Part shown: piece by piece, positions 5,409-49,002 of the stretch
Position numbering within the stretch: the first letter of the stretch is position 1
Layout: each line of letters begins with the position of its first letter
NCBI GenBank assembly: GCA_964558575.1
Contig: CAZLEQ010000004.1
Location: 28,156-92,155 of the forward strand
From: an uncultured Acidimicrobiaceae bacterium
Lineage (GTDB): Bacteria > Actinomycetota > Acidimicrobiia > Spongiisociales > ZC4RG35
Direction: 5' to 3'
Length of the DNA stretch: 64,000 nt
Position numbers and translations under genes: made by a program
Notes under the pieces: model-generated
The model's input: only the letters and a program-made list of their open reading frames with translations
Told to the model about the DNA's origin: nothing
The model's database searches: none

Positions 5409-6803
5409 CGTGACCGCTGACACCAGCTGTTCGACCGAGAGACCGTCCACTTCGAGCCTGATGTCGGGCTCGACACCGATGCCGCCGAAGTCCTGGCCGT
5501 TGGGAGTGAGCCAGCGAGCGATGGTGAGCTTGAGCGCACCTCCGTTGGAGAGGCTGAACCGCTGCTGGACCGTGTTCTTGCCGAAGGTGTTCTCACCGAC
5601 GATCACGGCACGTTCCGCCTCCTGCACGGCAGCGGCCACGACTTCAGACGCCGAGGCGCTGCCTGCGTTGACCACGATGTAGACGTTGATGTTCTCGGGC
5701 ACGATGGCGTTGCCGTTCACCGGGTACCTGGTGGACTCGTCCGGGCCCTCGGTGACCACGACGTCGCCGTCGTCGACGAACACCGAGGTGACCTCGATCG
5801 CCGTAGTGAGAAACCCTCCAGGGTTGTTCCTGAAGTCGATGACCAACTCGTCGACGCCGTCGGAGAGACGATCGACGATTGCTTGCTCGAAGAGTGAGCC
5901 GGCGTTGCCCGTGAAGTTGGCGAGGCTGATGTAGCCGACGGGGCCGATGGTCTCGGTGTCGATCGTCGGCACCTGGACGGAGGCGCGGGTGATGGTGACG
6001 TCGAACTCCTCGCCTTCCCTCTCCATGGTGAGGGCCACGTCGGTCCCTGCCCGGCCCCGCACCGCCGCGGTGACTTCGTCGACCGTCCACCCCAGAATCG
6101 AATCGCCGTCCACAGCGACGATGATGTCATCGGTCATCAGGCCGGCAGCCTCGGCAGGGGCGCCGGTGATAGTCGACACGATGCGAATCCGGCAGGTCTC
6201 GGAGACCACCCCACACTGCTTGTTGTCCCCGGGGATGGTGTCGTCTTCGGGTGAGACCAGGGCGCCGATGCCCTCGATCTGGCCGTCCTGGTCGTCCTGC
6301 AGCAGTGCCAGGGCCCGGGGGTCGAGATATGCCGAATTGGGGTCGAGACCGTACGTCACCATCCCGGTGACCATGGCTTCGGCCGCCTCGACACTGTCAT
6401 CGGCAGCTCGGGCTGCCACATCGCAAGTCGATTGAAAGGCCGGAACCGGTGTGGCGCAAACCAGCAGTTCGTCGGAGTCGGCCCCGTCGAGCATCTCGAG
6501 CCCGAGGACGGCCGCATCGGCGAGGTATTCCACGTCCACCTCGTCGACATAGTGCTCCAAGACGAGGTCGAAGGCCTCGCAGACGATGGCGACGTCCTCA
6601 TCGGCCTGGTCACATGCGACGAGAGCCAGCTCGCGGTCGAAGGTGACGGGGCCCGGGTCAGCGGTGCTGGTGGTGGTGGCGAGCGTGGTGGTGGTGGTCA
6701 CTGCCGCCGACGTGGTGGTGGATCCCTCCTCTCCGGTCGACGAGCAGGCGGCTGTGATCAACGCCACGGCGACCAGTGCAGAGAGGATCTTCTTGGATGT
6801 CAT
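5397..6803 (-). CDS. S41 family C-terminal processing peptidase, lipoprotein
   Basis: 468 aa. Lipobox LITAAC, Thr-rich linker, PDZ region (IVSTITGAPAEAAGLMTDDIIVAVDG), catalytic region IDFRNNPGGFL...VVNAGSASASEVVAAAV...TFGKNTVQ typical of Ctp/Prc S41. Confidence 0.8.
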   Translation of the reverse strand: MTSKKILSALVAVALITAACSSTGEEGSTTTSAAVTTTTTLATTTSTADPGPVTFDRELALVACDQADEDVAIVCEAFDLVLEHYVDEVDVEYLADAAVLGLEMLDGADSDELLVCATPVPAFQSTCDVAARAADDSVEAAEAMVTGMVTYGLDPNSAYLDPRALALLQDDQDGQIEGIGALVSPEDDTIPGDNKQCGVVSETCRIRIVSTITGAPAEAAGLMTDDIIVAVDGDSILGWTVDEVTAAVRGRAGTDVALTMEREGEEFDVTITRASVQVPTIDTETIGPVGYISLANFTGNAGSLFEQAIVDRLSDGVDELVIDFRNNPGGFLTTAIEVTSVFVDDGDVVVTEGPDESTRYPVNGNAIVPENINVYIVVNAGSASASEVVAAAVQEAERAVIVGENTFGKNTVQQRFSLSNGGALKLTIARWLTPNGQDFGGIGVEPDIRLEVDGLSVEQLVSAVTSAG

Positions 6804-8188
6804 GGGGTCGCTTCCAGCGCAAGCTCGACGATCTCCTCGACGGTGGCTCCCGAGGGCCAGCTGACCTCGATGTCTGGGGTCAGCCCGCCTTCTGCGACGG
6901 TGTCGCCCGACGGTGTCGACCAGCGGGCGACGGCCACATAGAACTCGCCGCCGTTGCGCAGGGTGAAGGTTATCTGCACCGCGTCTTTACCGAATGTGTC
7001 GCTGCCCACGACCACGGCGTTGCGCCTTTCCCTCAGCGCCCCGGCGAGTATCTCGGCGGCCGAGGCCGTTCCCTGGTTCACCAGGACGAGGAGACGCTGT
7101 GAGGTGGCGAGACCTCCCGCCGTGGCCGGGTAGTCATAGGGGCCGGACGGAGAGTCGCTGGACATGACGATCCCACCGTCGATGAACAGGTCGGCGACCG
7201 CGACGACCGCGTCGATATATCCCCCCGGGTTGTCACGGAGGTCGACGACGATGGTCCCCGGGCCCTCGGAGAGGATGTCTTCGATGCTGTCGGCGACGAG
7301 ACTCGGGACGTCGAGCTCGAAGTCGGGGATCCTGATGTAGCCGACCCCGCTGTGAGGCACGCCGAAATGGACCGTCGGTATAGTCAGCTCGCGGCGCTCG
7401 ATCGTGTGGGACGACTCCACCCCCTCTCGCTCGATGGTGATGTCGACCGGGCCCGACTCGTCGCCCGAGATGAGCGACACGACCTCGGTGAAACCCTTCC
7501 CCTCGACGCGCTCTCCATCGATCGCCGTGATGAGGTCGCCGGGCGCGAGGCCGGCGTTCGAGGCAGGGTTGTCCTCCAGGACCGTGACGATCTCCAGCGC
7601 ACAGACCGCGGTGATGCGGGTGCACTTCGATCCGGCGGCGTCCCGGGCATCGAGCAGGATGCCTATGCCTTCCACGATCCCGTTGAGGCGCACCGATCCG
7701 GCCTGGCTGGGTGGGAGGTAGTAGGTGAAAGGATCGAGCCCGAAGTCGATCATATGAGCCATGGCCGCTTCCACGGCAGGTCCCACAGGTAAGTGTTCCG
7801 AGTCGACTCGGGAGACCAATGCCTCGCACAAGGGCATGAAGGCCCGATGGGGGATGGCGCAGAAGAGAGTGCGTGGTGGATCCTCGATCTCGGTGGTGGT
7901 GAACCCCTCGAGACCTTCGATCGCCTCTCGGGCGAGCAGCTCGGCGTCCACCGGGGCATCCACGTACCAGTCCTCGAGCAACTCGAAGATCTCACAGAGC
8001 GGGCTGAAGGTCACCGGGGGCGAGTTGCATCCCCGGATCTCCATCTCGGTCGTCCCGGTGGTCGTGGCGACGGGTGGCGACGGAACGGTCTCCAGCGGAG
8101 GATTGGTCGTGGTGGTGACAGCCTCCATGCCCGCGCATGCCGGGACGAACATCAGGAGAACGACGAGAAGCCGGATCATTGACGCCAT
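6800..8188 (-). CDS. S41 family C-terminal processing peptidase, lipoprotein (paralog)
   Basis: ORF 6800..8695(-), trimmed to MASMIRLLVVLLMFVPACAG (signal/lipobox). VDLRDNPGGYI...LVNQGTASAAEILAGAL...TFGKDAVQ. 4-nt overlap (TCAT) with the downstream S41 gene. Confidence 0.75.
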   Translation of the reverse strand: MASMIRLLVVLLMFVPACAGMEAVTTTTNPPLETVPSPPVATTTGTTEMEIRGCNSPPVTFSPLCEIFELLEDWYVDAPVDAELLAREAIEGLEGFTTTEIEDPPRTLFCAIPHRAFMPLCEALVSRVDSEHLPVGPAVEAAMAHMIDFGLDPFTYYLPPSQAGSVRLNGIVEGIGILLDARDAAGSKCTRITAVCALEIVTVLEDNPASNAGLAPGDLITAIDGERVEGKGFTEVVSLISGDESGPVDITIEREGVESSHTIERRELTIPTVHFGVPHSGVGYIRIPDFELDVPSLVADSIEDILSEGPGTIVVDLRDNPGGYIDAVVAVADLFIDGGIVMSSDSPSGPYDYPATAGGLATSQRLLVLVNQGTASAAEILAGALRERRNAVVVGSDTFGKDAVQITFTLRNGGEFYVAVARWSTPSGDTVAEGGLTPDIEVSWPSGATVEEIVELALEATP

Positions 8189-8191
8189 TAT

Positions 8192-9286
8192 GTGGAACCG
8201 TCGCCAATTACCGTCCCAAACGTGAGTCTTCGAGTCGTCCTCAGGTCTCCCTCGGGGGAGAGCTTGGTGCGTGATGTCGTCGACGGATGCTGGGCCGAGG
8301 CTCGAGGAGATGCCGACACGACGCTGGGGGAGGATCTCTGGGCCCTTCCCGGGTTGGCCGATGCCCATGCCCACCTGGCCGCCGCGGAGCTCGACTATCA
8401 GCCCGGGGTGCTCGACGATGCCATGGAACGAGCCCGGGCCGCGCTTGGTGCGGGGGTCACCCTGGTGCTGGACAAGGGTTGGACCGACGATGTCACCATC
8501 CGACTGATCGACCAGCTGGATCCAGGAGATCGGCCCGAGATCGAGGCCGCGGCGGAGATCATCGCAAGCTTCGGCGGGTATTACCCCGGTTTCGCCCTCG
8601 AGGTCACCGAAGACCGGTTTGCCGCCACGGTGGCTGCCCAGGCCGCATCCGGGGCGGGATGGGTCAAGCTGATCGGCGACTGGCCCCGTCGCCACATCGG
8701 CCCGGTGGCCAACTTCGACGAGTCACAATTGCGCACCGCGGTCGAGATAGCCGAGTCGGCCGGAGCGCGGGTGGCGATCCACACCATGGCGCGCCAGGTT
8801 CCTTCTGCGGCGGTCGCGGCCGGTGTGCACTCCATCGAACACGGGATGTTCCTCGAAGAGGGCGATCTCGACGCCCTGGGGAGCCGGGGAGGCATGTGGG
8901 TGCCGACCGTGCTGCGCTGTGAGACGACGCTCGCCCAGCTAGGGGAGTCTTCCAGTGGCGGGAAACTCTTCGTCGAGGGCCTACAGCGGCTCCGGACGCT
9001 GCTGCCGCAGGCGCTCGAAGCCGGAGTTCGGGTCTTGGCGGGCACCGACCTGGTCGGTGCACCGGCGGATGTCGCCGCGGAGGCGATCCGGTTGGGTGAC
9101 TACGGGCTCTCCAACCGCCAGGTCGTCGAGGCAGTGTCGACCGCTGCTTTCATCGCCACCGATCGTCCGGCGGAGTTCGACGTCGGAGCACCCGCCGATG
9201 CGGTGCTCTTCGCCGCGAACCCAATCGACTCATTGGGAATTCTCAACCATCCGGCCCGGATCATCCGCCTGGGGAATCTGCGATGA
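8192..9286 (+). CDS. amidohydrolase family metal-dependent hydrolase
   Basis: 364 aa. PGLADAHAHL metal-binding HxH region, VAIHTMA and LAGTDLVG motifs of the amidohydrolase superfamily. Alternative GTG start at about 8222. ATGA overlap with maf. Confidence 0.65.
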   Translation: MEPSPITVPNVSLRVVLRSPSGESLVRDVVDGCWAEARGDADTTLGEDLWALPGLADAHAHLAAAELDYQPGVLDDAMERARAALGAGVTLVLDKGWTDDVTIRLIDQLDPGDRPEIEAAAEIIASFGGYYPGFALEVTEDRFAATVAAQAASGAGWVKLIGDWPRRHIGPVANFDESQLRTAVEIAESAGARVAIHTMARQVPSAAVAAGVHSIEHGMFLEEGDLDALGSRGGMWVPTVLRCETTLAQLGESSSGGKLFVEGLQRLRTLLPQALEAGVRVLAGTDLVGAPADVAAEAIRLGDYGLSNRQVVEAVSTAAFIATDRPAEFDVGAPADAVLFAANPIDSLGILNHPARIIRLGNLR

Positions 9287-9867
9287 GGCTGCTGCTCGCC
9301 TCGGGCTCGCCCCGGCGGGCGGCGTTGTTGACCCAGCTGGGCGTTCGATTCGACGTGGTGGCGCCGGACGTCGATGAGACCCGTCTGCCGGGCGAAGAGC
9401 CCGGGGTCTACGTGGAGCGCGTGGCCGGGGCGAAGGCGAGGGCGGTCGTCGTCGCCGATGCCGTGGTGGTGGCTGCCGACACCGCGGTGGTGCATGAGGG
9501 CCATGTCATGGGCAAGCCGGGGCATCCCCAGGAGGCGAGATCGATGCTGCAGCAGATCCAGGGCGATGTCCACGAGGTGGTGACGGGTCTGGCCGTGGCC
9601 GCAGCCGACGAGGTCCACGCGGTCGTCGACGCCACGATCGTGAGGATGCTTCCCATGACCGAGGATGAGATCGGTGAATACGTCGACACCGGCGAGCCCA
9701 TGGACAAGGCCGGTGCCTACGCCCTGCAGGGAAGGGGAGGCGTCTTCGTCGAGTCGGTGAACGGGAGCCCCTTCACCGTCGTCGGGCTGCCGATCCACCT
9801 CCTTCCCAGGTTGCTCGCCCGAGTCGGAGCCGACCTTCGCCGCTTCGATGCGGGCCGGCCGGTCTAA
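9283..9867 (+). CDS. maf: Maf family nucleoside triphosphate pyrophosphatase
   Basis: 194 aa. LLLASGSPRRAALLTQLG...VVAADTAVV...MDKAGAYALQGRGG is classic Maf/YhdE. Confidence 0.85.
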   Translation: MRLLLASGSPRRAALLTQLGVRFDVVAPDVDETRLPGEEPGVYVERVAGAKARAVVVADAVVVAADTAVVHEGHVMGKPGHPQEARSMLQQIQGDVHEVVTGLAVAAADEVHAVVDATIVRMLPMTEDEIGEYVDTGEPMDKAGAYALQGRGGVFVESVNGSPFTVVGLPIHLLPRLLARVGADLRRFDAGRPV

Positions 9868-9877
9868 CTTGTAGGCC

Positions 9878-10822
9878 ATGCGAAAGACGGCTCTGGTCAT
9901 AGCCATGCTCGCTACGGCGTGCAGTCCGGCCGACTCTGCCGACTCCACGACGGAGCCCTCCCCGACATCCACCAGTTCCACGAGCCCCGCCACCACGACG
10001 ACGGCACCGCCTCCCACCACGACCACTGCCCCGACCACGACCACGTCGCCAGGTGACACCACGACCACGACTCTGCTCGAGGGCCATTGGGCTCACGGAC
10101 CCCTGGTGACCACGGAGTTCGGTGCCCTCGGCTGGTGGGATGGCAGCGGGTGGCTGGATGCCGAGAGCGAGGGCGCGTTGCCGGTCGCCGGGGGAGAGGA
10201 CTATCAAGTGATCGTGCTCGACCGGTTGGGCCGGACCACGGGCGGCCCTCAGATCACGGTGTGTGAGCCGCTGGAGCTCATCGGCGTCGAGCTCGCCGAT
10301 CCCGAGCTGCTCGGACAGTTCCCCGGGCCCTATGGCATCGCCATATCCGCTCCATGGGACCTCCAACCCCACTTGTTCGAGACCGTCGCCGACGACGGCA
10401 CCTACGCCGGACATGCCGCACAGCTGCTCTCCGCACGTGGCCTCGACGTTGCCGAGCCCTTCATCAAGCAGCTGTTCCGAACCGACCTCGAGGGGGATGG
10501 CATCAACGAGGTGCTCGTCGTGGCCGAGGAAGTGAGCCCGGGATTCATCATGGAGGAAGGTGACTACTCCATCGCCTTCATGCGCAAGGTGGTAGGCGGT
10601 GAGGTCCAGACCGCGATCCTCGGCGAGACGACGGTCTTCGACGAGATGGACCAGTTCGGGGCGGCTCACTCCTTTGGAGGAGTGGCCGATCTCAATGGCG
10701 ACGGGAAAATGGAGGTCATCGTCAATGCGGCCTTCTTCGAGGGGTTCGCCGTGGAGGTCTGGGAGTATGTGGACGACGACCTGGGGCCCCTCCAGGTCCT
10801 GCAGATGGGATGCGGAAGCTGA
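9878..10822 (+). CDS. secreted lipoprotein of unknown function (Thr/Pro-rich linker, C-terminal beta-rich domain with GDGKMEV motif)
   Basis: Lipobox MLATAC. TTTTAPPPTTTTAPTTTT low-complexity linker. No recognisable catalytic motif. Confidence 0.5.
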   Translation: MRKTALVIAMLATACSPADSADSTTEPSPTSTSSTSPATTTTAPPPTTTTAPTTTTSPGDTTTTTLLEGHWAHGPLVTTEFGALGWWDGSGWLDAESEGALPVAGGEDYQVIVLDRLGRTTGGPQITVCEPLELIGVELADPELLGQFPGPYGIAISAPWDLQPHLFETVADDGTYAGHAAQLLSARGLDVAEPFIKQLFRTDLEGDGINEVLVVAEEVSPGFIMEEGDYSIAFMRKVVGGEVQTAILGETTVFDEMDQFGAAHSFGGVADLNGDGKMEVIVNAAFFEGFAVEVWEYVDDDLGPLQVLQMGCGS

Positions 10823-30528: not shown

Positions 30529-33500
30529 CTAACTACAACCCGTGGTGTCACCACACGTCAGGCAGACGTAGCAACTTCCGTTGCGAACGGTCATGTGGCC
30601 GCAGTTGGAGCAGGCCGGGGCATCGCCCATGTTCTCTGACAGGGCGGCGTTGGCGACACTCGCATCGCCGTTGGCGGCAGCCACCGACACCTTCTCCCGC
30701 TTCGGCGCCCTGATGTCCTCGTCGGGACCGTCGAGGTACTCGACTGCCGACCTCACCGCATCGACGTCGGAGTCGGCGGCGGCGTCGTCGAGCTCGAGTT
30801 GGACTCCGGCCTCGACAGCCAAGCCCTGTGGGGGCTCGGGGAGATCGCTCTCACGGTCAGGTGGCACCTGGGCCAGCTCGTCACGTCGCAGGTACTCGAC
30901 GCCGAGGGCGCGGAACACGTAGTCGACGATCGAATTGGCCATCTTGACGTTGGGATGGCCCTCGACCATGCCTCGGGGCTCGAAGGTCTGGAAGGTGAAT
31001 GTGTCCACGAACTCCTCCAAAGGCACGCCGTACTGGAGACCCTTGGAGACGGCGATGGCGAAACAGGACAGGATCCCCTTGAGGGTCGCCCCCTCTTTGG
31101 CCAAATCGATGAAGATCTCGCCGAGAGTGCCGTCCTCATACTCGCCGGTGCGCAGGTAGACCTTGTGGCCACCCACCCGAGCCTCCTGGTTGAAGCCGGA
31201 GCGTCGGGCGGGAAGCAGGAACCGGGGAGGCTTCATCCCCTGGGCGTAGGCCTGGGTCGGGGAGATGCCGGCGGGCAGGTTCCCCCAGTGGATGGTCTTC
31301 TCCGCTTCGACGGCGGCGGTGATCGCCTCGTCCTCGTCCTCGTTGCCCTCGCCCTCGTCGGCGGTCGAATTGAGTGGCTGGGCCGCCTTCGAACCGTCTC
31401 GGTAGAGGGCCATGGCCTTGAGACCCAGCTCCCAGGAGAGGTGATAGGCACCTTCTATCTCCTCGACGGTCACCTCGTGGGGCATGTTGATCGTCTTCGA
31501 GATCGCACCAGAGATGAACGGTTGAGCCACCGCCATCATCTTGATGTGACCGTTGTGGTGGATGAATCTCGTCCCGTACTTGCCGTTCTTGTTGGCAGTG
31601 TCGAACACCGAGAGATGCTTCTCCTCGATGTGAGGAGCATCCTCGATGGTCTGCCGTCCGCAGATGTGGTCGTTGGCCTCGGTGATCTGCTGTCTGGTGA
31701 ATCCGAGTGCTCTGAGCAGGTCGAAGTCCCAACTGGTGTACTCGTCGACGGAGAAGCCGAGCCGTTGCAGGGTCTCCTCGCCGAAGGTGAACACGTTGAA
31801 GGCGTGCTTCAGCTCGAACACCGCGGGCAGGGCTGCCTGAACCTTGAGGATGTCCTCCTCGGAGAACCCTTTCTCCAGCAACGTGTCGGTGTTGATGTGG
31901 GGAGCGCCCTCGATCGAGCTGGTGCCGACGATGTAGGTGACGATGTCGGAGATCTCCTGGGGCGCGTACCCGAGACGGGTCAGCGCGGGTGCCACCGACT
32001 GGTTGACGATCTTGAAGTAACCGCCACCGGCCAGCTTCTTGAACTTGACCAGGGCGAAGTCCGGCTCGACACCGGTTGTGTCACAGTCCATGAGCAGACC
32101 GATCGTCCCGGTGGGAGCGAGCACCGTCGCCTGCGCGTTGCGGTAGCCGTTGGCTTCACCCCTCTCTAGAGCCAGGTCCCACGAGGTACGGGCCGCTGCC
32201 AACAGGTCTTCGGGGCACGACTCGGGGTCGATCCCCATGACCTTCGTGGAGATGTTGTGGTAGTCGTCGCCGTCGTAGGCGGCAACCCGGTGGTTGCGGA
32301 TCACCCGGAGCATGGCGTCGCGGTTCTCCTCGAACTTGGGGAACGGCCCGACGACTTCCGCGACCTCCGCAGAGGTGGCATACGAGTACCCGGTGAGCAC
32401 CGAGGTGATCGCCCCGGCGATGGCCCGTCCCTCGTCGGAGTCGTAGGCGATGCCTTGACGCATCAGCAGCGACCCGAGGTTGGCATAGCCGAGACCGAGG
32501 GTCCGATAGTCGTGGGAGCCCTGGGCGATCTCCTTCGAGGGGAAGTGGGCCATGGCCACCGAGACCTCGAGGACGATGGTCCAGAGACGGATGGCGTGCT
32601 GGTAGGCGTCGATGTCGAAGGTGCCGGTCTCATCGTCATAGAGCCTGACCAGATTGATCGAGGCCAGGTTGCATGCGGTGTCGTCGAGGAACATGTACTC
32701 GCTGCACGGGTTTGACGCATTGATCCGGCCACCTGCCGGGCTGGTGTGCCACTCGTTGATCGTGGTGTCGAACTGGAGGCCGGGGTCGGCGCAGGCCCAG
32801 GCGGCCTCTGCGATCTGGTTCCACAGCTCGCGGGCCGTGACCGTCCTGCGCACCGAGCCATCGGTGCGGTTGATCAGATCCCAGTCACGGTCCTCCTCGA
32901 CCGCCTTGATGAAGTCGTAGGTGACCCGGACCGAGTTGTTCGAGTTCTGCCCGGACACGGTGGCGTAGGCCTCTCCGTTGAAGTCGGCCGGGAAGCCCCC
33001 ATGTTGGATCAGGACCTTGGCCTTCTCCTCCTCGATTTTCTTCCAGTCGACGAAGGTCTCGATGTCGGGATGGTCGACGTCGAGGATCACCATCTTGGCG
33101 GCACGGCGGGTGGTCCCCCCGGACTTGATGGCACCGGCGGCGCGATCGCCGATCTTGAGGAAGGACATCACGCCCGAGGACTTGCCTCCGCCCGAGAGCA
33201 ACTCGCCCTCGGCCCGGATAGCGGAGAAGTTGGACCCGGCGCCGGAGCCGAACTTGAAGATACGGGCCTCACGAAGCCAGAGATCCATGATGCCGCCCGG
33301 GTTGACCAGATCGTCGGTGACTCCGTTGATGAAGCAGGCGTGGGGGGCGGGTCGGCTGTACGAGTCGGGAGACTCGACCAGCTCTCCGGTCTCGTCGTCG
33401 ACGTACCAGAACCCCTGAGCCGGGCCGGTGATGTCGTAGGCGTGGTTGAGGCCGGTGTTGAACCACTGTGGTGAATTGGGGGCGGCGATCTGGGCGGCGA

Positions 33501-33894
33501 GCATGTACTTGAGCTCGTCCTCGAAGGCGTCGGCGTCGTCGGTCGAGGCGAAGTAACCCTCTTTCTCGCCCCAATGACGCCAGGTGCCGGCGAGACGGTC
33601 GAAGACCTGCTTCGAGGAGCGCTCCGGCCCGGTGACGGGATTGCCGTCCTCGTCCAAGATCTGGTTGCCCTCGTCGTCGACCTGGGGGACACCGGCCTTG
33701 CGGAAGTACTTGGACACCATGATGTCCGACGCCACCTGGCTCCAGCGGGCCGGGATCTCGGCGTCGGTCATCTCGAACACGATCGAACCATCGGGGTTGG
33801 TGATGCGGGAATCTCGGTGCGACCACTCGAACTGGCTGTAGGGGTCGGTTCCGGCCTCCGTGAAGCGTCGGGTGATCCGCAGGCCTTTGCTCAT
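30529..33894 (-). CDS. nrdJ: adenosylcobalamin-dependent (class II) ribonucleoside-diphosphate reductase
   Basis: 1121 aa from MSKGLRITRRFT. RNR catalytic core (NPCSEYMFLDDTACNLASINL, thiyl Cys loop). C-terminal CxxC...CxxC zinc-ribbon (CSNCGHMTVRNGSCYVCLTCG). Confidence 0.92.
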   Translation of the reverse strand: MSKGLRITRRFTEAGTDPYSQFEWSHRDSRITNPDGSIVFEMTDAEIPARWSQVASDIMVSKYFRKAGVPQVDDEGNQILDEDGNPVTGPERSSKQVFDRLAGTWRHWGEKEGYFASTDDADAFEDELKYMLAAQIAAPNSPQWFNTGLNHAYDITGPAQGFWYVDDETGELVESPDSYSRPAPHACFINGVTDDLVNPGGIMDLWLREARIFKFGSGAGSNFSAIRAEGELLSGGGKSSGVMSFLKIGDRAAGAIKSGGTTRRAAKMVILDVDHPDIETFVDWKKIEEEKAKVLIQHGGFPADFNGEAYATVSGQNSNNSVRVTYDFIKAVEEDRDWDLINRTDGSVRRTVTARELWNQIAEAAWACADPGLQFDTTINEWHTSPAGGRINASNPCSEYMFLDDTACNLASINLVRLYDDETGTFDIDAYQHAIRLWTIVLEVSVAMAHFPSKEIAQGSHDYRTLGLGYANLGSLLMRQGIAYDSDEGRAIAGAITSVLTGYSYATSAEVAEVVGPFPKFEENRDAMLRVIRNHRVAAYDGDDYHNISTKVMGIDPESCPEDLLAAARTSWDLALERGEANGYRNAQATVLAPTGTIGLLMDCDTTGVEPDFALVKFKKLAGGGYFKIVNQSVAPALTRLGYAPQEISDIVTYIVGTSSIEGAPHINTDTLLEKGFSEEDILKVQAALPAVFELKHAFNVFTFGEETLQRLGFSVDEYTSWDFDLLRALGFTRQQITEANDHICGRQTIEDAPHIEEKHLSVFDTANKNGKYGTRFIHHNGHIKMMAVAQPFISGAISKTINMPHEVTVEEIEGAYHLSWELGLKAMALYRDGSKAAQPLNSTADEGEGNEDEDEAITAAVEAEKTIHWGNLPAGISPTQAYAQGMKPPRFLLPARRSGFNQEARVGGHKVYLRTGEYEDGTLGEIFIDLAKEGATLKGILSCFAIAVSKGLQYGVPLEEFVDTFTFQTFEPRGMVEGHPNVKMANSIVDYVFRALGVEYLRRDELAQVPPDRESDLPEPPQGLAVEAGVQLELDDAAADSDVDAVRSAVEYLDGPDEDIRAPKREKVSVAAANGDASVANAALSENMGDAPACSNCGHMTVRNGSCYVCLTCGDTTGCS

Positions 33895-33965
33895 GTATTC
33901 CTCCTCGACCGGGGTCCGCCCCTCCCTACCGGGATCTGTCAGGACGGGTTCATTCTCAACTCCAA

Positions 33966-34012
33966 CCACAAGATGTTGTGGTCTGGGGGGAAGTGACCAC
34001 TAGATCTTGTAT
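33966..34012 (-). promoter_or_regulatory. tandem NrdR boxes upstream of nrdJ
   Basis: CCACAAGATGTTGTGG (7-bp perfect arms) and CCACTAGATCTTGTAT, starts 31 bp apart. Matches the NrdR-box consensus acaCwAtATaTwGtgt and tandem spacing. Embedded in an unusually AT-rich leader. Confidence 0.5.
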
Positions 34013-43419: not shown

Positions 43420-44406
43420 TCAGGGGTGGAGCAGCACTTTCCCGGTGGTGGCGCGCCCTTCCAACGCCCGATGCGCCTCGGCCGCCTGTTCCAGCGGGTA
43501 TGTCGCGCCGATGCGGACGTCGAGGCTCCCCTCCACGATCCAGTCGTAGAGATCGCTCACCCGCCCCATCAACTCGTCGCGGGTGCTCATGTAGTGCGCC
43601 ATGGTCGGTCGGGTGAGAAAGATCGAGCCCTTCTGGGCGAGCAGCAAAGGTGAGACCGCCGGGACCGGGCCCGATGCGTTCCCGAACGTGACCATCATGC
43701 CGCGGGGGCGGAGCAGATCGATCCCGTCGTCGAAGGTGGTTGCCCCGACCCCGTCGTAGACGACGTCGAGGGGATTCGGCCCGTAACGGGTCTCGATCTC
43801 TTCCTTGAAGTCCGCCTCGGTGTAGATGATCACATCATCGGCCCCGGCCCGGCGACTCAATTCCGCTTTCTCCTCCGAGCCGACGGTGGTGATGACATGA
43901 GCACCCCGCTTCTTGGCGATCTGGGTGAGCAACAACCCGACTCCACCGGCTCCGGCGTGAATCAGACAGTGGTCACCTTCGGTGAGGGGGAACGTGGAGT
44001 TGGCCAGATAGTGGGCGGTGGTCCCCTGGAGCAGCACTGCCGCGGCGATGTCGGTCTCCACGCCATCGGGGATCGGGATCGCCTTCTCGGCGGGGACCAG
44101 GTGCCGTTCGCGGTAGCTTCCCAGGACGTTCGTCCAGGCCACCCGGTCCCCGACCTCGAAACCGCCGACACCGTCACCCACCGAATCGACCGTGCCGGCT
44201 CCTTCCAGGCCCGGGGTGAAGGGCAGGTCGAGCGGGTAGAGCCCTTCGCGGTGGTAGGTGTCGATGAAGTTGACCCCGGCAGTCTCCACGTCGACCAGTA
44301 GTTCCTCAGCACTCGGAGTGGGATCGTCCACCTCCTCGACGAGGAGTCTGTCGGCTCCACCGGTTTCACGGACCAGTATCGCCCTCACGCTTTCTCCACC
44401 CTCCAT
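43420..44406 (-). CDS. NADPH:quinone oxidoreductase (zinc-type ADH/MDR superfamily)
   Basis: 328 aa. AGVNFIDTY and GAGGVGLLLTQIAKKRGA Rossmann motifs. Confidence 0.8.
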   Translation of the reverse strand: MEGGESVRAILVRETGGADRLLVEEVDDPTPSAEELLVDVETAGVNFIDTYHREGLYPLDLPFTPGLEGAGTVDSVGDGVGGFEVGDRVAWTNVLGSYRERHLVPAEKAIPIPDGVETDIAAAVLLQGTTAHYLANSTFPLTEGDHCLIHAGAGGVGLLLTQIAKKRGAHVITTVGSEEKAELSRRAGADDVIIYTEADFKEEIETRYGPNPLDVVYDGVGATTFDDGIDLLRPRGMMVTFGNASGPVPAVSPLLLAQKGSIFLTRPTMAHYMSTRDELMGRVSDLYDWIVEGSLDVRIGATYPLEQAAEAHRALEGRATTGKVLLHP

Positions 44407-44804
44407 CCTCTCTTCTCGAGCTCATCGGCCAGGATCGAGTCGGGTAGATGGGAGAGATCCAGCCGGTCCCTCTCCGTCCCGAGCAGACGTTCGATCGGGT
44501 CGCGCACCGTCCGCGCCCAGGCCGATCCCTTCGCCTCGGCCTCCAGGGTCAGCGTGGCGTCGGCGTTGACGGTGTACACCTTCGCCATGCTCTGCGGGTT
44601 TCCCCGGGATCCTCTCTCTCCGTACACCAGTAGCACCGACCCCGCCGGCACGTCCTGGATGCCCCCGGCGGCGACGAACGAACCGTCGAATGCCCATCCC
44701 GAAGACTTGGATGTGTCGACGTTGACGACCACTTTCGCCCAGTTCTTGTGTCTCTCGTCACCCGCCAGAGGTATGTCGACGGCGACGATCACCGATCCGT
44801 CCAT
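44385..44804 (-). CDS. hypothetical protein
   Basis: 139 aa from MDGSVIVAVDIPLAGDERHKNW. No family recognised. Confidence 0.35.
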   Translation of the reverse strand: MDGSVIVAVDIPLAGDERHKNWAKVVVNVDTSKSSGWAFDGSFVAAGGIQDVPAGSVLLVYGERGSRGNPQSMAKVYTVNADATLTLEAEAKGSAWARTVRDPIERLLGTERDRLDLSHLPDSILADELEKRGWRVEKA

Positions 44805-44863: not shown

Positions 44864-45859
44864 ATGGCCAAGCTCCGATTGTTCGCCAGCCTCCGTGAGA
44901 TCGCCGGAACCTCGCGGCTGGACGTGCCTGCCGAGACGGTCGGTGGGGTGGTGGAGGCTGCCAGCGACAAGTTCGGTCCCGACTTCGCTCGTGCCACCGA
45001 GACCGCACGGGTTTGGCTCAACGGACAGGAAGCCGAGGCTTCGGAACGAGTCGGCGACGACGACGAGGTCGTCATCCTTCCCCCGGTGTCGGGTGGGAGC
45101 CAGCCGGCCGCCATCGCTCCATCGGATTTGGCCGGTTTCCTCCCGCTGGTCGTCGCCGTCGTCGCCGTGCTGGCCAACCTGCAGGAGCAGCCGATCTGGG
45201 CCGCGGCCCTGGTGGCAGTGCTGTCGGGTTGGGCGGTCGACGTTGGTAACTCCTTCATGTCACGCCGGCGCGCCTTCGCTCCCCTCGCGGTGGCGACCGC
45301 GGTGGCCACTTCGACCCTGGCCGCCCACATCCTCGGACCCACCGGCTACGGCCTCTCGGTAGCCCTGGCGGTGGCCGTCGTGCTGGGCTGGGCCGTGGCC
45401 TTCCCCGCCTACCGGCAGGCGGAGGTGTTCGCCCCGACCTTCTTGGTCGGGCTGCTGGGTGCGCTCGCGGCCGCTTCGCTGATCCTGACCCGCTCGTCGT
45501 TCACCCCGGACCCCCAGGCGATCGACGTCTTCCTGGTTGCGGTCATCGCCGGGGTGGCCCTGGGGGCTCTGGTGGGTCGTCTCCCGGCGATCCCTTTCCT
45601 CGACCGGTTCTCGACCACCGCGATCGCCTCGGTGCTGGCAGCCCTGGCGGTGGCATCGCTGTGGGATCTCGACGTCGTCGGCTACCTGCTCGTCGGGGTT
45701 GGGATCGCGGTGGCTCTCGTCGCCGGCCAGGGTCTGTCCTCGATGCTGCGGACCGGCGGTGTCATGCTCACTGAGCGCCCCCCCGGCTTCTTCCCCTCGC
45801 TCGACGGTGTGGTCCTGGCCGCTGCCGTCTACTTCCCTTTGATCCGCCTCGTCCTCTGA
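44864..45859 (+). CDS. MoaD/ThiS-like sulfur-carrier domain ending in Gly-Gly, fused in frame to a polytopic membrane domain
   Basis: N-terminal 84 aa (MAKLRLFASLREIAGTSRLDVPAETVGGVVEAASDKFGPDF...DDDEVVILPPVSGG) align end-to-end with MoaD including the terminal GG. No stop follows. About 245 aa of Ala/Leu-rich TM helices continue in the same frame. Confidence 0.5.
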   Translation: MAKLRLFASLREIAGTSRLDVPAETVGGVVEAASDKFGPDFARATETARVWLNGQEAEASERVGDDDEVVILPPVSGGSQPAAIAPSDLAGFLPLVVAVVAVLANLQEQPIWAAALVAVLSGWAVDVGNSFMSRRRAFAPLAVATAVATSTLAAHILGPTGYGLSVALAVAVVLGWAVAFPAYRQAEVFAPTFLVGLLGALAAASLILTRSSFTPDPQAIDVFLVAVIAGVALGALVGRLPAIPFLDRFSTTAIASVLAALAVASLWDLDVVGYLLVGVGIAVALVAGQGLSSMLRTGGVMLTERPPGFFPSLDGVVLAAAVYFPLIRLVL

Positions 45860-46009: not shown

Positions 46010-47095
46010 ATGGCTGCCTCGAAGACGCCAGCACGCGTCTTGATCGTCATCTTCCTCGTGGCACTGGTCGGATCCCTATTTCCCATGGTCTCCGGTGCGG
46101 TCACGAGATCCCAAGTGGATGAGGCCTGTCGAGACTCCCAGGATCAGCTGGCTGCCTATCGGGTCGCCCGGACGGCATTCGAGGAGGCAGCGCTCGACTA
46201 CGAGGCGGCTCTCAACGAGGTGGCGCGTCTCGAGTACAAGCAGGGCCGGATCCAGGCATCGGTGGACTCTCACTCGGAGGGCTACGAACGGGTTCAGGAC
46301 CAGCTCGAAGAGCAGGCCGTCCAGATGTACATGATGGGAGGGTTCAACAACCCGGGGATCATCCTCTCGGCGTCCTCGGTGGATCAGGTGATGACCACCT
46401 CGGAGTTCCTCAACTCAGCCACCTTGGGTGGACAACAATCGATCAACGACATCGTGGCCGCCAAGGGAGAGCTGACCCGGTACCAGGGCGAGCTCGACAC
46501 CGTCCACGACGAGCTCAGCGCAGCCGAGGCCGAGTCCCTCGGCATCCTCAACCGCCAGCAGGATGCCATGGAGGCGGAACAGGCCGCATACGCGCGGCTC
46601 AGTGACCGCTGTAAGCAACTGACCGCCCAGTACGAGCGGGAACAGGAGGAGCGTCGGCAGAGGGAAGCGCAGCGGAGGGCCGGATCGGTCCAGGTGGGTT
46701 CGTTCATCTGCCCGTTCACCCCGGGGCGGACCTCGTTCATCGACTCCTGGGGCTTCCCCCGCCCCGGTGGCCGCACCCACAAAGGCGTCGACATGTTCGC
46801 CGCCCGCGGCGAGCCGATGTACGCGGTCCAGGCCGGGACCGCCGGGACATCGAGCAACCGGCTCGGGGGGTTGACCGTTCACCTGCGGGCCGACACCGGC
46901 TTCACCTACTACTACGCCCACCTCGACAGCTTCGCCTTCTCGGGAAGCAAGCGGGTGGCCCAGGGTGAGGTCCTCGGCTACAACGGCAGCTCGGGGAACG
47001 CCCGGGGGATCAGCCCCCACCTCCACTTCGAGATCAGACCCGGCGGCGGAGGGCCGGTCAACCCTTATCCCACGGTGCGGGCAGCCTGTTACTAA
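46010..47095 (+). CDS. M23 family metallopeptidase with N-terminal signal peptide and coiled-coil region
   Basis: [20 protein letters not shown] and [19 protein letters not shown] (LytM HxxxD/HxH motifs). Confidence 0.8.
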
Positions 47096-47105
47096 CCTGG
47101 CCGGC

Positions 47106-47636
47106 GTGACCGACAAGCGCCGCCGTATCGACATCGTCCTCGAGCCCGAGTATCTGGACGGGCTCCCGGAGCTGGATCTGGCCGAGGTGCGAAGTCGCCG
47201 TGACACCGCAACCGACGTGGAAGCCCAGATCTCGTACTACCGGCGCCTGCTCCACGGGCGCATGGATCTCCTCGACTTCGAGCAGAGGAGACGTCGGGGC
47301 CAGGAGGAGCGTTCGATCCTGGAGGCACTTCCCGACATCCTCGCCAAGGGGATGGTCCTCGGGACCGAGCCTGTCCTGAAGCACATCGAGACCATGCCGC
47401 CCCTTCCCTCCGTGACGGGTCGGCGGCTCATCGACAAGATCATGGACGACGGTGTCCTCGCCAATCTCCCCGAGCTCAGCGACGACGAGATCTCCGAGGC
47501 GATCGAGCGTCTCCGTGAGGTGGAGACCCAGCTGTCCGGTCAGCGCAGACAGCTCCATCAGGTCATCGACACGCTCCAGGACGAGATGGTCTCCAGGTAC
47601 AGGAGCCAGCAGGACGGGGCGCAGGTCAGCGGCTGA
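47106..47636 (+). CDS. hypothetical coiled-coil protein
   Basis: 176 aa from a GTG start. Charged helical repeats. No family recognised. Confidence 0.4.
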   Translation: MTDKRRRIDIVLEPEYLDGLPELDLAEVRSRRDTATDVEAQISYYRRLLHGRMDLLDFEQRRRRGQEERSILEALPDILAKGMVLGTEPVLKHIETMPPLPSVTGRRLIDKIMDDGVLANLPELSDDEISEAIERLREVETQLSGQRRQLHQVIDTLQDEMVSRYRSQQDGAQVSG

Positions 47637-47638
47637 CC

Positions 47639-48586
47639 TTGCTTGCTGAGCAGGTCAGATCGGGGCTCGTCGAGACCTCACATGAAGGTGCCGTGGCCGT
47701 GGTGGGCCGTGACGGCGCCCTGGTCGCATCCTCGGGCGACATCGACCGGCCCTTCTACATCCGCTCTTCCGCCAAGCCGTTCCAGGCAACGATCTCCCAG
47801 GAGGCAGGGGCCGGGCTCAGCCCTCTGGAGATGGCGATGGCCTGCGCTTCGCATCGAGGATTCCCGGCCCACATCGCTTTGGTCGAGTCGATGCTCGGGC
47901 GGGCGGGTCTCGACGAGTCGGCTCTGGGATGCCCTCCCGACTGGCCGCTGGGAAGCGCCGCCCGGGAGATGGCCATTGCCTCTGGGCCCTCGGGCAAGCG
48001 GAGGATATGGCACAACTGCTCGGGCAAGCACGCCGCATTCCTGCGGGCATGTGTCGCATCGGGGTGGCCGACGGAGTCGTACTTGTCACCAGGTCACCCG
48101 TTGCAGAGACAAGTCATCGATCTCGTCTCCGAATTGGGTGAGTACCCCTCCGAGCCGGTGGGGATCGACGGATGCGGCGCCCCGGTCCTGCGGACGACGG
48201 TCAGGGCGATGGGACTGCTTTTCGCCCGGTTGGCGACCGAACCCCGGTTGCAGGGGGCCTTCACGGCGATGCACCGCTATCCAGCCCTCGTCGGCGGGAA
48301 CGGTGCCAGCGATACCGAGATCGCCATCGTGACCAATTCGGCGGCGAAGGGTGGTGCCGCCGGCTGTCTTGGCATCGCAGTCGAGAACCGCCTCGGCATG
48401 GCGGTCAAGAGCTGGGACGGACTCGGCATCGTCACCGGGGTGGCGGCGGTGGCCGCCCTGGAGGAGCTCGGCTGTCTGACGGCAGTGGCTCTCGACGCTC
48501 TCCAGCCCGTGCTGCATCCCCCGGTCTCCGGCGGTGGAGTCACCGTCGGTCGCTACGAGCCGCGCCTCAGACTGGAGCCGGCATGA
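47639..48586 (+). CDS. asparaginase (Asparaginase_II family)
   Basis: 315 aa. IRSSAKPFQA, NCSGKHAAFL and DGCGAPV motifs. Confidence 0.65.
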   Translation: MLAEQVRSGLVETSHEGAVAVVGRDGALVASSGDIDRPFYIRSSAKPFQATISQEAGAGLSPLEMAMACASHRGFPAHIALVESMLGRAGLDESALGCPPDWPLGSAAREMAIASGPSGKRRIWHNCSGKHAAFLRACVASGWPTESYLSPGHPLQRQVIDLVSELGEYPSEPVGIDGCGAPVLRTTVRAMGLLFARLATEPRLQGAFTAMHRYPALVGGNGASDTEIAIVTNSAAKGGAAGCLGIAVENRLGMAVKSWDGLGIVTGVAAVAALEELGCLTAVALDALQPVLHPPVSGGGVTVGRYEPRLRLEPA

Positions 48587-49002
48587 GAGCTGTGCTCGAG
48601 GAGCGGATCCGGCTCTGGTTGGAGGACGAGGAGAGCTCGGTCGAGTACGCCGAGGAGGTCGAGGGACGCTGGGCGGTTCGGATGCGCCAGGAGACCCGGG
48701 ATGCCACGACGGTCTGGTTCGACATCGGAGAGCGGAGCCTCCAGTTCGAGGCGTACGTCCTGCCCGAGCCCAACGCTCCGGCCGAGGTCCATCGGCAGGC
48801 CCTGGTGCGCAATGCCCGCGCCTGGCGCTGCTACTTCGCCCTCGATGCCGAGAACGCCGTCGTCCTCCGGGGACGCATCGCCGCCGAGTCGGTAACCATC
48901 GAAGAGCTCGACCGTGTGCTCGGTGAGGTTTATGACACCATCGAGCTGGCGTTCCGTCCCATGGTTCGCGCCGCCTTTCCGGGTCGCGAAAAATCGCCCT
49001 AG
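48583..49002 (+). CDS. YbjN domain protein
   Basis: 139 aa. ATGA overlap with the asparaginase gene. YbjN-like pattern. Confidence 0.5.
   Translation: MRAVLEERIRLWLEDEESSVEYAEEVEGRWAVRMRQETRDATTVWFDIGERSLQFEAYVLPEPNAPAEVHRQALVRNARAWRCYFALDAENAVVLRGRIAAESVTIEELDRVLGEVYDTIELAFRPMVRAAFPGREKSP

What the first reader, a model, noticed from the sequence alone, without database searches (positions are those of the whole stretch)
44864..45859. MoaD/ThiS-like domain with terminal Gly-Gly fused to a polytopic membrane protein
The first 84 residues are an end-to-end MoaD match that finishes with the activating GG dipeptide. The frame then continues without a stop into about 245 aa of TM helices. A free GG carboxylate is needed for adenylation/thiocarboxylation. 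This therefore implies a precursor cleaved by a JAMM/Mec-type protease (as for CysO), a membrane-tethered ubiquitin-like modifier, or a lost stop codon. No moeB/moaE/JAMM gene is adjacent.
Basis: partly seen in the sequence, partly recalled or inferred. Interest (0 to 1): 0.55.

Follow-up and report, generated by a model that had tools for sequence, protein, structure and literature searches.

The report
MoaD fused to neighbouring membrane protein
A small sulfur-carrier protein (MoaD) is fused in one reading frame to the membrane protein normally encoded by the gene next door; the fusion is real and conserved in a group of Acidimicrobiia, and the carrier is probably cut free after its Gly-Gly, as in a known mycobacterial MoaD fusion.

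Summary
Window 44864-45859 (+) is a 331-aa ORF. Residues 1-78 are a full-length MoaD/ThiS beta-grasp domain ending PPVSGG; the GG is at 77-78, not 83-84. A short flexible linker and nine TM helices follow.

It is not an assembly error. Hundreds of independent assemblies carry the same fusion, and about 50 representatives go down to 30% identity. All 345 fused proteins in hand keep the GG.

The TM part is homologous (hhalign 96%, E 1e-9) to a separate membrane protein. In other Acidimicrobiia that protein is encoded directly downstream of a stand-alone, GG-terminated MoaD. The family is a degenerate CdsA-like (Pfam CTP_transf_1) group. All of this lies in a conserved block: moaD-like, membrane gene, rsiG (c-di-GMP anti-sigma), ybjN.

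One related lineage has the split state (MoaD ending GGDR, stop, then the TM gene). Another has lost MoaD but kept the TM gene. MoaD-RsiG fusions also occur.

The best reading is an ancient fusion of adjacent genes that yields a precursor cut after Gly78 by a peptidase encoded elsewhere, as for M. tuberculosis MoaX (Gly82|Ser83). Cleavage is inferred, not shown. The main rival is an uncleaved, membrane-tethered beta-grasp adaptor linked to RsiG. No E1, MoaE or JAMM gene lies in the window.

The parts
44864..45859 (+). Whole fused ORF (331 aa plus stop): MoaD domain, linker and 9-TM domain
   Evidence: ORF list and sequence. Coding-type GC3 of 0.85. 100% identical protein P0001 and more than 450 homologous clusters.
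44864..45097 (+). MoaD/ThiS-type beta-grasp domain, residues 1-78, ending LPPVSGG (GG codons 45092-45097)
   Evidence: Pfam PF02597 35.7 bits over the full profile. NCBIfam moaD, moaD_arch and SAMP1 all match to the last profile position. The AF2 model matches E. coli MoaD 1fm0_D with TM-score 0.79 (normalised to the target), plus SAMP1, mycobacterial MoaD and CysO. 32% identical to E. coli MoaD. PPVSGG is 100% conserved in 47 diverse family members.
45098..45118 (+). Flexible linker, residues 79-85 (SQPAAIA); proposed cleavage site lies between G78 and S79
   Evidence: Residues 76-84 have pLDDT below 50. The sequence and the length of the linker vary across the family (8-25 aa here, up to about 450 aa in the related fused family). 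The residue after GG is S, A, D, T, G, Q, E or N in all 345 fused proteins.
45119..45856 (+). Nine-helix membrane domain, residues 86-331; a degenerate relative of a CdsA-like (CTP_transf_1) membrane protein family
   Evidence: AF2 TM-only model has pLDDT 93.3 and pTM 0.90 with nine long helices. K+R count is 8 cytoplasmic versus 2 outside for an N-in topology. hhalign to the separately encoded membrane family gives Prob 96.4, E 1.2e-9 over 214 columns; reversed and shuffled controls give E 0.2-0.7. 18 of 32 members of that family hit PF01148. The window protein has no Pfam hit for this part and no PDB fold match.
44385..44804 (-). Divergently transcribed 139-aa hypothetical gene (context only)
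   Evidence: Called and conserved in L001-L007 and L091. No Pfam family.
46010..47095 (+). M23 peptidase with N-terminal membrane anchor and coiled coil; always the next gene after the fused MoaD-TM gene
   Evidence: PF01551 in orthologous loci. Present directly downstream in all 16 fused-TM loci, and also in the split locus L092 and the MoaD-less locus L091.
47106..47636 (+). RsiG-like anti-sigma factor (176 aa) with two E-x3-S-x2-R-x3-H-x3-D motifs
   Evidence: PF22802 in orthologous loci. Motifs at aa 39 and 140. An RsiG homologue lies downstream of the MoaD-like gene in 62 of the 87 related loci and is fused to it in L056, P0230 and a 12-member cluster.
47639..48586 (+). Asparaginase II family gene (context)
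   Evidence: PF06089 in orthologous loci; synteny.
48583..49002 (+). YbjN-like gene; conserved downstream member of the block
   Evidence: PF10722 in orthologous loci. Found 1.5-7 kb downstream of the MoaD-like gene in 63 of 87 loci.

Best explanation
The gene is an ancient, conserved fusion of two neighbouring genes from an Acidimicrobiia-wide gene block.

The first gene is a MoaD-type sulfur-carrier protein. Its closest relatives are stand-alone 75-80-aa proteins that end in ...LPPVSGG, and a few of those sit inside canonical moaE-moeA-moaA-moaD-moaB-moaC clusters.

The second is the membrane protein normally encoded directly downstream. It is a nine-helix, probably non-catalytic, highly diverged relative of CDP-diglyceride synthase (the CTP_transf_1 superfamily).

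Proposed mechanism:
- The fused product inserts with the MoaD domain in the cytoplasm, joined to the first TM helix by an unstructured linker of about 8 residues.
- It is then most likely cut between Gly78 and Ser79 by a trans-acting peptidase encoded elsewhere in the genome: a JAMM/MPN+ enzyme, or the still unidentified protease that cuts M. tuberculosis MoaX.
- Cleavage frees a 78-aa MoaD whose Gly-Gly carboxylate can be adenylated and thiocarboxylated, and it leaves an independent membrane protein.

Shown: the fusion is real and conserved; the two halves are neighbours elsewhere; the GG is invariant; the linker is flexible; the two halves can exist apart.

Inferred: the cleavage, the identity of the protease, and the use of the released MoaD (molybdopterin synthesis being the default).
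For: 1. The fusion is real and old. The fused architecture at about 330 aa runs from 100% down to about 30% identity. It occurs in 16 fetched loci with the same downstream order: M23, RsiG, asparaginase II, YbjN.

2. It arose from neighbours.
- hhalign of the TM domain against the separately encoded membrane protein found directly downstream of stand-alone MoaD gives Prob 96.4, E 1.2e-9, end to end; controls give E 0.2-0.7.
- Within the window-type clade itself, L092 has the split state: MoaD ...PPVSGGDR, stop, then GTG starting the TM gene.
- Independent fusions of the same MoaD to the CdsA-like protein occur with linkers of 40-450 aa, including in Iamia majanohamensis.
- It is also fused to RsiG where RsiG is the immediate neighbour.

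3. The GG is under selection although it is internal.
- PPVSGG is the most conserved block, 100% in 47 representatives.
- All 345 fused proteins keep GG, always followed by a small or polar residue, while the linker varies freely.
- In the one lineage that lost the MoaD domain (L091), the remnant reads VTGR.

4. The domain is a true MoaD type. It is 31-43% identical to E. coli MoaD, and three related loci place it inside a moa operon. The fold matches MoaD, SAMP1 and CysO.

5. Many stand-alone relatives carry 1-2 extra residues after GG. This suggests a GG-exposing peptidase exists in these lineages.

6. The junction is accessible: residues 76-84 have pLDDT below 50, and pTM is 0.72 for the full-length model against 0.90 for the TM part alone.

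7. There is precedent. MoaX of M. tuberculosis must be cut between Gly82 and Ser83 to work (PMC4326299). D. radiodurans JAMM cuts a MoaD-MoaE fusion (PMC8832034, abstract).

8. The TM protein works without MoaD. The L091-type cluster keeps TM-M23-RsiG-asparaginase without any MoaD upstream.
Against: - No cleavage data exist.
- No JAMM, E1-like, MoaE or rhodanese gene lies in the 64-kb window or within 10 kb in orthologous loci. The rest of the genome could not be searched.
- The N-domain scores below the NCBIfam moaD equivalog cut-off.
- I could not tell whether genomes with the fusion have other moaD genes, or any Moco pathway.
- The repeated linkage and fusion of this MoaD with RsiG and with the membrane protein could reflect a shared function (the 'Rosetta stone' argument) rather than neutral fusions that cleavage makes tolerable.
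- The NJ tree of the 78-aa domain is unresolved.
- The CdsA link is weak for the window protein itself: it has no Pfam hit, and Foldseek finds no PDB match.
Confidence: 0.55

Rival explanations
1. Uncleaved membrane-tethered adaptor. The beta-grasp domain stays attached and acts as a cytoplasmic protein-binding module of the membrane protein. It would recruit or regulate the neighbouring anti-sigma factor RsiG (c-di-GMP/sigma-WhiG switch), much as the YukD-like ubiquitin domain stays attached to the polytopic EccD protein of type VII secretion systems.
For: - The MoaD-like gene is followed on the same strand by rsiG in 62 of 87 loci, often with overlapping stop and start codons.
- Natural MoaD-RsiG fusions exist in at least 12 sequences, as do MoaD-membrane fusions with linkers of 10-450 aa. 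By fusion logic this predicts physical interaction among the three proteins.
- No E1, JAMM or MoaE gene is nearby.
- EccD3 appears as a weak architecture-level Foldseek hit.
- The YukD/EccD precedent is described in PMC1779556.
Against: - An uncleaved tether gives no reason for absolute conservation of Gly-Gly when the linker right after it is free to vary.
- Most stand-alone orthologs end exactly at GG or 1-2 residues later, the hallmark of C-terminal carboxylate chemistry.
- Three related genes sit in moa operons.
- The TM protein persists with the same neighbours after losing MoaD (L091). MoaD persists next to RsiG where no membrane homologue lies within 10 kb.
- The papers on RsiG that I searched do not mention a MoaD partner.
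Confidence: 0.27
2. Ubiquitin-like conjugation. After release, the GG carboxylate is attached to proteins (SAMP/TtuB-like), or even to a lipid at the membrane with the help of the CdsA-like domain (Atg8-PE-like), rather than carrying sulfur.
For: - The fold and profile similarity to SAMP1 is as strong as to MoaD.
- The partner is a relative of a membrane lipid-nucleotidyl transferase.
- Makarova and Koonin speculated that cytidylyltransferases could act in archaeal Ubl transfer (PMC2948915).
Against: - The CdsA signature is destroyed in all 469 family proteins, and the window subfamily has also lost the acidic AY[DE]xGD motif.
- No E1 or JAMM gene is nearby.
- The TM protein and MoaD occur without each other.
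- No experimental hint exists.
Confidence: 0.08
3. Artefact or recent pseudogene: a sequencing or assembly indel, or a very recent stop-codon loss, with no biological meaning.
For: Split orthologs with a stop just after GG exist.
Against: - The identical architecture appears in hundreds of independent assemblies from four data sources. It is conserved to about 30% identity with both halves under purifying selection.
- Coding GC3 is uniform across the junction.
Confidence: 0.01

Closest known systems
MoaX of Mycobacterium tuberculosis (fused MoaD-MoaE molybdopterin synthase), and the D. radiodurans MoaD-MoaE fusion cut by DRJAMM
   Same: - An actinobacterial MoaD domain at the N-terminus with an internal Gly-Gly followed by Ser.
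- In MoaX, cleavage between Gly82 and Ser83 by a trans-acting, unidentified protease is required for function (PMC4326299).
- DRJAMM is reported to cut DRMoaD-MoaE (PMC8832034, abstract).
   Different: - The fusion partner here is not MoaE. It is a nine-helix membrane protein with no known role in Moco synthesis.
- Cleavage has not been shown.
- No moa genes are nearby.
EccD (type VII/ESX secretion): a YukD-like ubiquitin domain fused to a polytopic membrane domain in Actinobacteria
   Same: An N-terminal cytoplasmic beta-grasp domain on a multi-pass membrane protein in the same phylum (PMC1779556). It also gives a weak architecture-level Foldseek hit, 6sgz_E.
   Different: - The beta-grasp domain here is MoaD/ThiS type with an invariant GG; YukD has none and is not conjugated.
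- The membrane domain is unrelated: rmsd 12-17 A, TM-score about 0.2.
- There is no ESX gene context.
CdsA / CTP_transf_1 (PF01148) phosphatidate cytidylyltransferases
   Same: The related, separately encoded or long-linker-fused membrane proteins reach Pfam significance: 18 of 32 members, best E 7e-8, P0389 at 29.6 bits against a cut-off of 24. Their motifs align in register with E. coli CdsA.
   Different: - The window protein gives no PF01148 hit.
- The CdsA signature is absent from all 469 family proteins.
- The lysine-rich loop is deleted and one Asp of the DRxD motif is replaced.
- There is no Foldseek match to any solved structure.
- It is probably not a cytidylyltransferase.
CysO/Mec+ and archaeal SAMP/JAMM systems; eukaryotic ubiquitin-fusion precursors
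   Same: These are beta-grasp carriers or modifiers whose GG must be exposed by a peptidase. Ubiquitin is made fused to unrelated proteins and released by cleavage after GG (established knowledge).
   Different: In those bacterial and archaeal systems the JAMM and E1 genes are usually adjacent (PMC1779556). Here none is within reach.

Membership tests
MoaD/ThiS family (Pfam PF02597) | Profile match above the curated cut-off over the whole domain | tested here: met
   35.7 bits against a cut-off of 22.5; residues 5-78 match profile positions 2-76 of 76.
MoaD/ThiS family (Pfam PF02597) | Beta-grasp fold | tested here: met
   AF2 model with pLDDT about 80-86 for residues 1-70. Foldseek gives 1fm0_D MoaD with TM-score 0.79 (normalised to the target) and rmsd 2.6 A, plus SAMP1, mycobacterial MoaD and CysO.
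MoaD/ThiS family (Pfam PF02597) | Gly-Gly at the very C-terminus of the translated product (free carboxylate) | tested here: not met
   The GG is at residues 77-78 of 331. It would be free only after proteolysis. Stand-alone orthologs do end at GG or at GG plus 1-2 residues.
MoaD equivalog (NCBIfam TIGR01682, molybdopterin synthase small subunit) | Score above the equivalog cut-off | tested here: not met
   45.2 bits against a cut-off of 66.15.
MoaD equivalog (NCBIfam TIGR01682, molybdopterin synthase small subunit) | Genomic association with moaE, moaA, moaC or moeB | tested here: not met
   None in the window or in fused-type loci. Three stand-alone relatives at 46-51% identity (L040, L065, L079) do lie in moa clusters.
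MoaD equivalog (NCBIfam TIGR01682, molybdopterin synthase small subunit) | Adenylation and thiocarboxylation of the C-terminal Gly, and sulfur transfer to cPMP | not testable with these tools
   This needs biochemistry or complementation.
MoaX-type cleavable MoaD fusion | Internal GG followed by a small residue at the domain junction | tested here: met
   The junction is GG|S. In 345 fused relatives the next residue is S, A, D, T, G, Q, E or N. MoaX is cut at Gly82|Ser83.
MoaX-type cleavable MoaD fusion | Fusion partner is MoaE | tested here: not met
   The partner is a nine-helix membrane domain. There is no MoaE similarity.
MoaX-type cleavable MoaD fusion | Post-translational cleavage after GG | not testable with these tools
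   Inferred only.
CdsA / CTP_transf_1 (PF01148) | Profile match of the protein itself | tested here: not met
   No PF01148 hit at E up to 1. hhalign against the single E. coli CdsA sequence gives E 0.08.
CdsA / CTP_transf_1 (PF01148) | Homology to proteins that do match the profile (transitive link) | tested here: met
   hhalign gives Prob 96.4-96.5, E about 1e-9, to the membrane family. 18 of 32 members of that family hit PF01148, best E 7e-8. Controls are negative.
CdsA / CTP_transf_1 (PF01148) | Catalytic signature S-x-[LIVMF]-K-R-x4-K-D-...-H-G-G-x-x-D-R-x-D (pattern recalled from memory and checked on E. coli CdsA) | tested here: not met
   E. coli CdsA matches the pattern. The window protein and all 469 family proteins do not.
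CdsA / CTP_transf_1 (PF01148) | Fold similarity to a solved CdsA structure | tested here: inconclusive
EccD-like (YukD beta-grasp plus polytopic membrane domain) | YukD-family beta-grasp domain, ESX gene neighbourhood and the EccD membrane fold | tested here: not met
   Pfam assigns ThiS, not YukD. There are no ESX genes. EccD3 superposes at rmsd 12-17 A.
Ubl conjugation systems (SAMP/TtuB-like) | Adjacent E1-like and JAMM genes | tested here: not met
   None in the window or in orthologous loci.

The most novel reading that the evidence does not exclude
The MoaD-like beta-grasp protein, the degenerate CdsA-like membrane protein and RsiG would form one membrane-associated module that controls sigma-WhiG / c-di-GMP signalling in Acidimicrobiia. 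The GG tail would serve either as a regulated cleavage or release switch, or as a handle for covalent attachment. On this reading the fusion is a functional tether between a ubiquitin-like domain and an anti-sigma pathway, not a tolerated accident.
Probability: 0.15. Interest if true: 0.7.

Novelty: new variant of a known kind. Interest (0 to 1): 0.45.

Why it matters
If the MoaD domain is released after Gly78, this family extends the MoaX principle to an unrelated membrane partner: prokaryotic ubiquitin-like carriers made as cleavable fusions. The recurrent fusions to whichever gene lies downstream would then parallel eukaryotic ubiquitin-fusion genes, and would point to a still unidentified GG-specific peptidase in Actinobacteria.

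If the domain is not released, it is a second actinobacterial case, after EccD, of a beta-grasp domain serving as the cytoplasmic module of a polytopic protein. Here it would be tied to the RsiG/WhiG c-di-GMP switch.

Either way, current annotation ('MoaD/ThiS family protein', 'sulfur-carrier protein') hides a 250-aa membrane domain and a conserved moaD-membrane-rsiG gene block. The RsiG papers and the beta-grasp surveys I searched do not mention either.

Tried and rejected
- **PDB sequence search.** A profile search of PDB sequences with the CdsA-like fused family returned only a marginal SAMP1 hit and no CdsA.
- **Comparison with E. coli CdsA.** hhalign against the single sequence was in register but not significant (E 0.03-0.08).
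- **Tree of the MoaD domains.** The NJ tree, meant to separate 'moa-operon' from 'RsiG-linked' copies, was star-like and uninformative.
- **M23 peptidase as the GG-cutting enzyme.** The adjacent M23 peptidase belongs to a family of Gly-Gly endopeptidases. I rejected it on topology. It has an N-terminal membrane anchor or signal and is extracytoplasmic, whereas the MoaD domain and the junction are cytoplasmic (K+R 8 inside, 2 outside).
- **Internal translation start for the TM part.** The GGTGGGAGC at the GG codons looks like a Shine-Dalgarno sequence, but the nearest in-frame start (TTG, Leu89) is about 28 nt away, too far. Not supported.
- **TM domain as an intramembrane protease that cuts its own GG.** Rejected. 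The only near-invariant polar residues are D126, R184, D247, R296 and D314, with no His, Cys or Ser set and no known protease motif.
- **Assembly artefact.** Rejected on the breadth of conservation.
- **Genome-wide search for JAMM, E1 or other moaD genes in carriers of the fusion.** Not possible.
- **Literature.** I searched three RsiG papers (PMC8325347, PMC7005675, PMC12871210) and two beta-grasp/Ubl surveys (PMC1779556, PMC2948915). I found no mention of a MoaD-membrane or MoaD-RsiG association.
Full report
**1. Observation**

Window 44864-45859 (+) is a 331-aa ORF with an ATG start. Its GC by codon position (0.74/0.51/0.85) is typical of coding sequence in this 65.7% GC window and is the same on both sides of the junction.

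Pfam ThiS (PF02597) matches residues 5-78 over the whole 76-position profile, at 35.7 bits against a cut-off of 22.5. NCBIfam moaD, moaD_arch and SAMP1 all align to their last profile position at residue 78, but below their equivalog cut-offs. The remaining 253 residues are hydrophobic.

AlphaFold2 gives a confident model (mean pLDDT 88.7):
- a beta-grasp domain;
- a disordered stretch at residues 76-84 (pLDDT below 50);
- nine long helices.

The TM part modelled alone reaches pLDDT 93.3 and pTM 0.90. Basic residues are distributed 8 inside to 2 outside, which puts the MoaD domain and the junction in the cytoplasm. Foldseek matches the N-domain to E. coli MoaD (1fm0_D, TM-score 0.79 normalised to the target), SAMP1, mycobacterial MoaD and CysO.

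**2. Not an artefact**

A 100% identical protein and more than 450 homologous clusters from NCBI, JGI, ENA and Logan assemblies have the same ~331-aa architecture. All the named ones are Acidimicrobiia MAGs.

An exhaustive HMMER search of 1.84 billion representatives found about 50 full-length fused representatives down to about 30% identity. In an alignment of 47 of them, PPVSGG is 100% conserved and the MoaD half is far better conserved than the TM half. In the TM half only W123, D126, G161, R184, D247, G288, R296, G308 and D314 are nearly invariant.

**3. Where the fusion came from**

The same search returned many stand-alone proteins of 75-80 aa that are 45-59% identical to the N-domain. 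They end in ...LPPVSGG, or in GG plus one or two residues.

A scan of species-representative genomes gave 80 loci: 11 with the fused gene, and the rest with a stand-alone MoaD-like gene that has a stop at or just after GG. Comparing neighbours by tblastn and HMM searches showed a conserved block on one strand: MoaD-like gene, then often a membrane gene, then rsiG, then ybjN.

Tally over 87 loci:

| Arrangement | Loci |
|---|---|
| Window-type fusion, always followed by M23 peptidase (then RsiG in 11 of 16, asparaginase II in 10, YbjN in 13) | 16 |
| Stand-alone MoaD followed directly by a separate 250-320-aa polytopic membrane gene | 16 |
| MoaD fused to that membrane protein | 2 |
| MoaD followed immediately by rsiG, often with overlapping stop and start | about 33 |
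| MoaD inside a canonical moaE-moeA-moaA-moaD-moaB-moaC cluster | 3 |

The window's TM domain is homologous to the separate membrane family. hhalign gives Prob 96.4 and E 1.2e-9 over 214 columns end to end, while reversed and shuffled controls give E 0.2-0.7.

Two look-ups inside the window-type clade settle the matter.
- **L092 has the split state.** An 80-aa MoaD ends ...PPVSGGDR, followed by a stop, four bases, and a GTG that starts a 254-aa TM gene. M23, RsiG and asparaginase II follow.
- **L091 has lost the MoaD domain.** It keeps TM, M23, RsiG and asparaginase II, and the remnant at the N-terminus reads VTGR instead of VSGG.

So the window gene is an old fusion of two adjacent genes that can each exist alone.

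**4. What the membrane half is**

The window protein has no Pfam hit for this part. In the related membrane family, 18 of 32 members hit CTP_transf_1 (PF01148, the CdsA family) with best E 7e-8. P0389 scores 29.6 bits against a cut-off of 24.

Its motifs align in register with E. coli CdsA:
- AY[DE]xGD[YF] with ADSGAY;
- EGPxAG with WQGFIGG;
- ALRR[LI]DS with GILDRIDS.

I therefore describe the TM half as a degenerate, probably non-catalytic relative of CdsA-like proteins. This rests on a transitive sequence link only. Its own function is unknown. The conserved polar residues lie at the cytoplasmic ends of the helices.

**5. Is the GG used?**

Arguments for cleavage after Gly78:
- All 345 fused proteins in hand keep GG, always followed by S, A, D, T, G, Q, E or N. 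The linker that follows varies from about 8 to about 450 residues with no conserved sequence.
- The stand-alone orthologs end at GG, the hallmark of carboxylate chemistry. Many carry a 1-2-residue extension that must be trimmed, which suggests these lineages have a GG-exposing peptidase.
- The domain is a real MoaD type. It is 31-43% identical to E. coli MoaD, and some relatives lie in moa operons.
- The junction is predicted to be disordered.
- The same MoaD is fused to whichever gene happens to lie downstream: the membrane gene or rsiG. That is what one expects if fusions are tolerated because the carrier is cut off anyway.
- Each partner persists without the other.
- There is precedent. M. 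tuberculosis MoaX must be cut between Gly82 and Ser83 by an unidentified protease (PMC4326299). D. radiodurans JAMM cuts a MoaD-MoaE fusion (PMC8832034, abstract).

Arguments against:
- No cleavage data exist.
- No JAMM, E1, MoaE or rhodanese gene lies in the window or in orthologous flanks.
- The rest of the genome could not be examined.

**6. Main rival**

The tight linkage with rsiG, seen in 62 of 87 loci, could mean that the three proteins work together and that the beta-grasp domain stays attached as an adaptor, as YukD does in EccD (PMC1779556). So could the natural MoaD-RsiG and MoaD-membrane fusions.

The window's rsiG homologue (47106-47636) has two E-x3-S-x2-R-x3-H-x3-D motifs, so His stands where the published c-di-GMP motif has Gln (motif from PMC8325347). 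The RsiG papers I searched do not mention a MoaD neighbour.

This reading does not explain the invariant GG, nor the independent persistence of each partner. I give it about 0.27. I give a conjugation (SAMP-like or lipid) reading about 0.08, and an artefact about 0.01.

**7. Comparison with known systems, and novelty**

The closest known case is MoaX and the other MoaD-MoaE fusions. They share the same domain, the same GG|S junction and the same phylum, but have a different partner. EccD shares only the architecture.

Iyer et al. 2006 list fusions of ThiS/MoaD to ThiG, MoaE, sulfite reductase, AOR and ThiF. Their text mentions no membrane or CdsA-like partner. Databases name these proteins only 'MoaD/ThiS family protein' or 'sulfur-carrier protein'.

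I class this as a new variant of a known kind. Interest is moderate (0.45). The fusion itself is largely explained, but three things remain open and testable: the unidentified GG peptidase, the function of the degenerate CdsA-like protein, and the conserved MoaD-RsiG linkage.

Noticed in passing
window 47106-47636 (+): [quoted passage not shown] No WhiG-type sigma factor gene was found in the window.
   Followed up: partly
L056 4252-4977; protein P0230 and its 12-member cluster: These are natural fusions of the same MoaD-like domain (GG retained) directly to RsiG, 241-303 aa long, in Acidimicrobiia where rsiG is the immediate downstream gene.
   Followed up: partly
L091 5870-6774: A lineage 64% identical in the TM domain has lost the MoaD domain entirely but keeps TM-M23-RsiG-asparaginase II. 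The residual N-terminus reads ...PPLAGGPSVTGRSQP, possibly a remnant of PPVSGGSQP.
   Followed up: partly
L043 10001-11690: The MoaD frame stays open for 563 codons and reaches RsiG in the same frame, while the membrane homologue lies in another frame. This is probably a frameshift in that MAG assembly, or a disrupted MoaD-membrane fusion.
   Followed up: no
window 46010-47095 (+): An M23 (Gly-Gly endopeptidase family) protein with an N-terminal anchor and a long coiled coil always follows the fused gene (16 of 16 loci). It is also present in the same block in L024, L080 and L087.
   Followed up: partly
window 5397-8695 (-): Two tandem S41 (C-terminal processing, CtpB-like) peptidases with PDZ domains, 468 and 631 aa.
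   Followed up: no
window 30529-33969 (-); L091 1-4087: A class II (B12-dependent) ribonucleotide reductase of 1146 aa with a TSCPD domain. In the related contig L091 the orthologue is at least 1595 aa and carries an intein with a LAGLIDADG endonuclease.
   Followed up: no
L086, L087, L092 downstream regions: The conserved block continues with a GT4 glycosyltransferase, YbjN, P5C reductase, a small HTH_17 protein and a SAM hydroxide adenosyltransferase. From memory, this resembles the mshA-Rv0487 region of other Actinobacteria, so part of the MoaD-RsiG linkage may be inherited core-genome synteny.
   Followed up: no
window 9100-10068 (-): A 322-aa ORF that starts with a Val/Gly-rich low-complexity sequence and has no Pfam match. 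It may not be a real gene.
   Followed up: no
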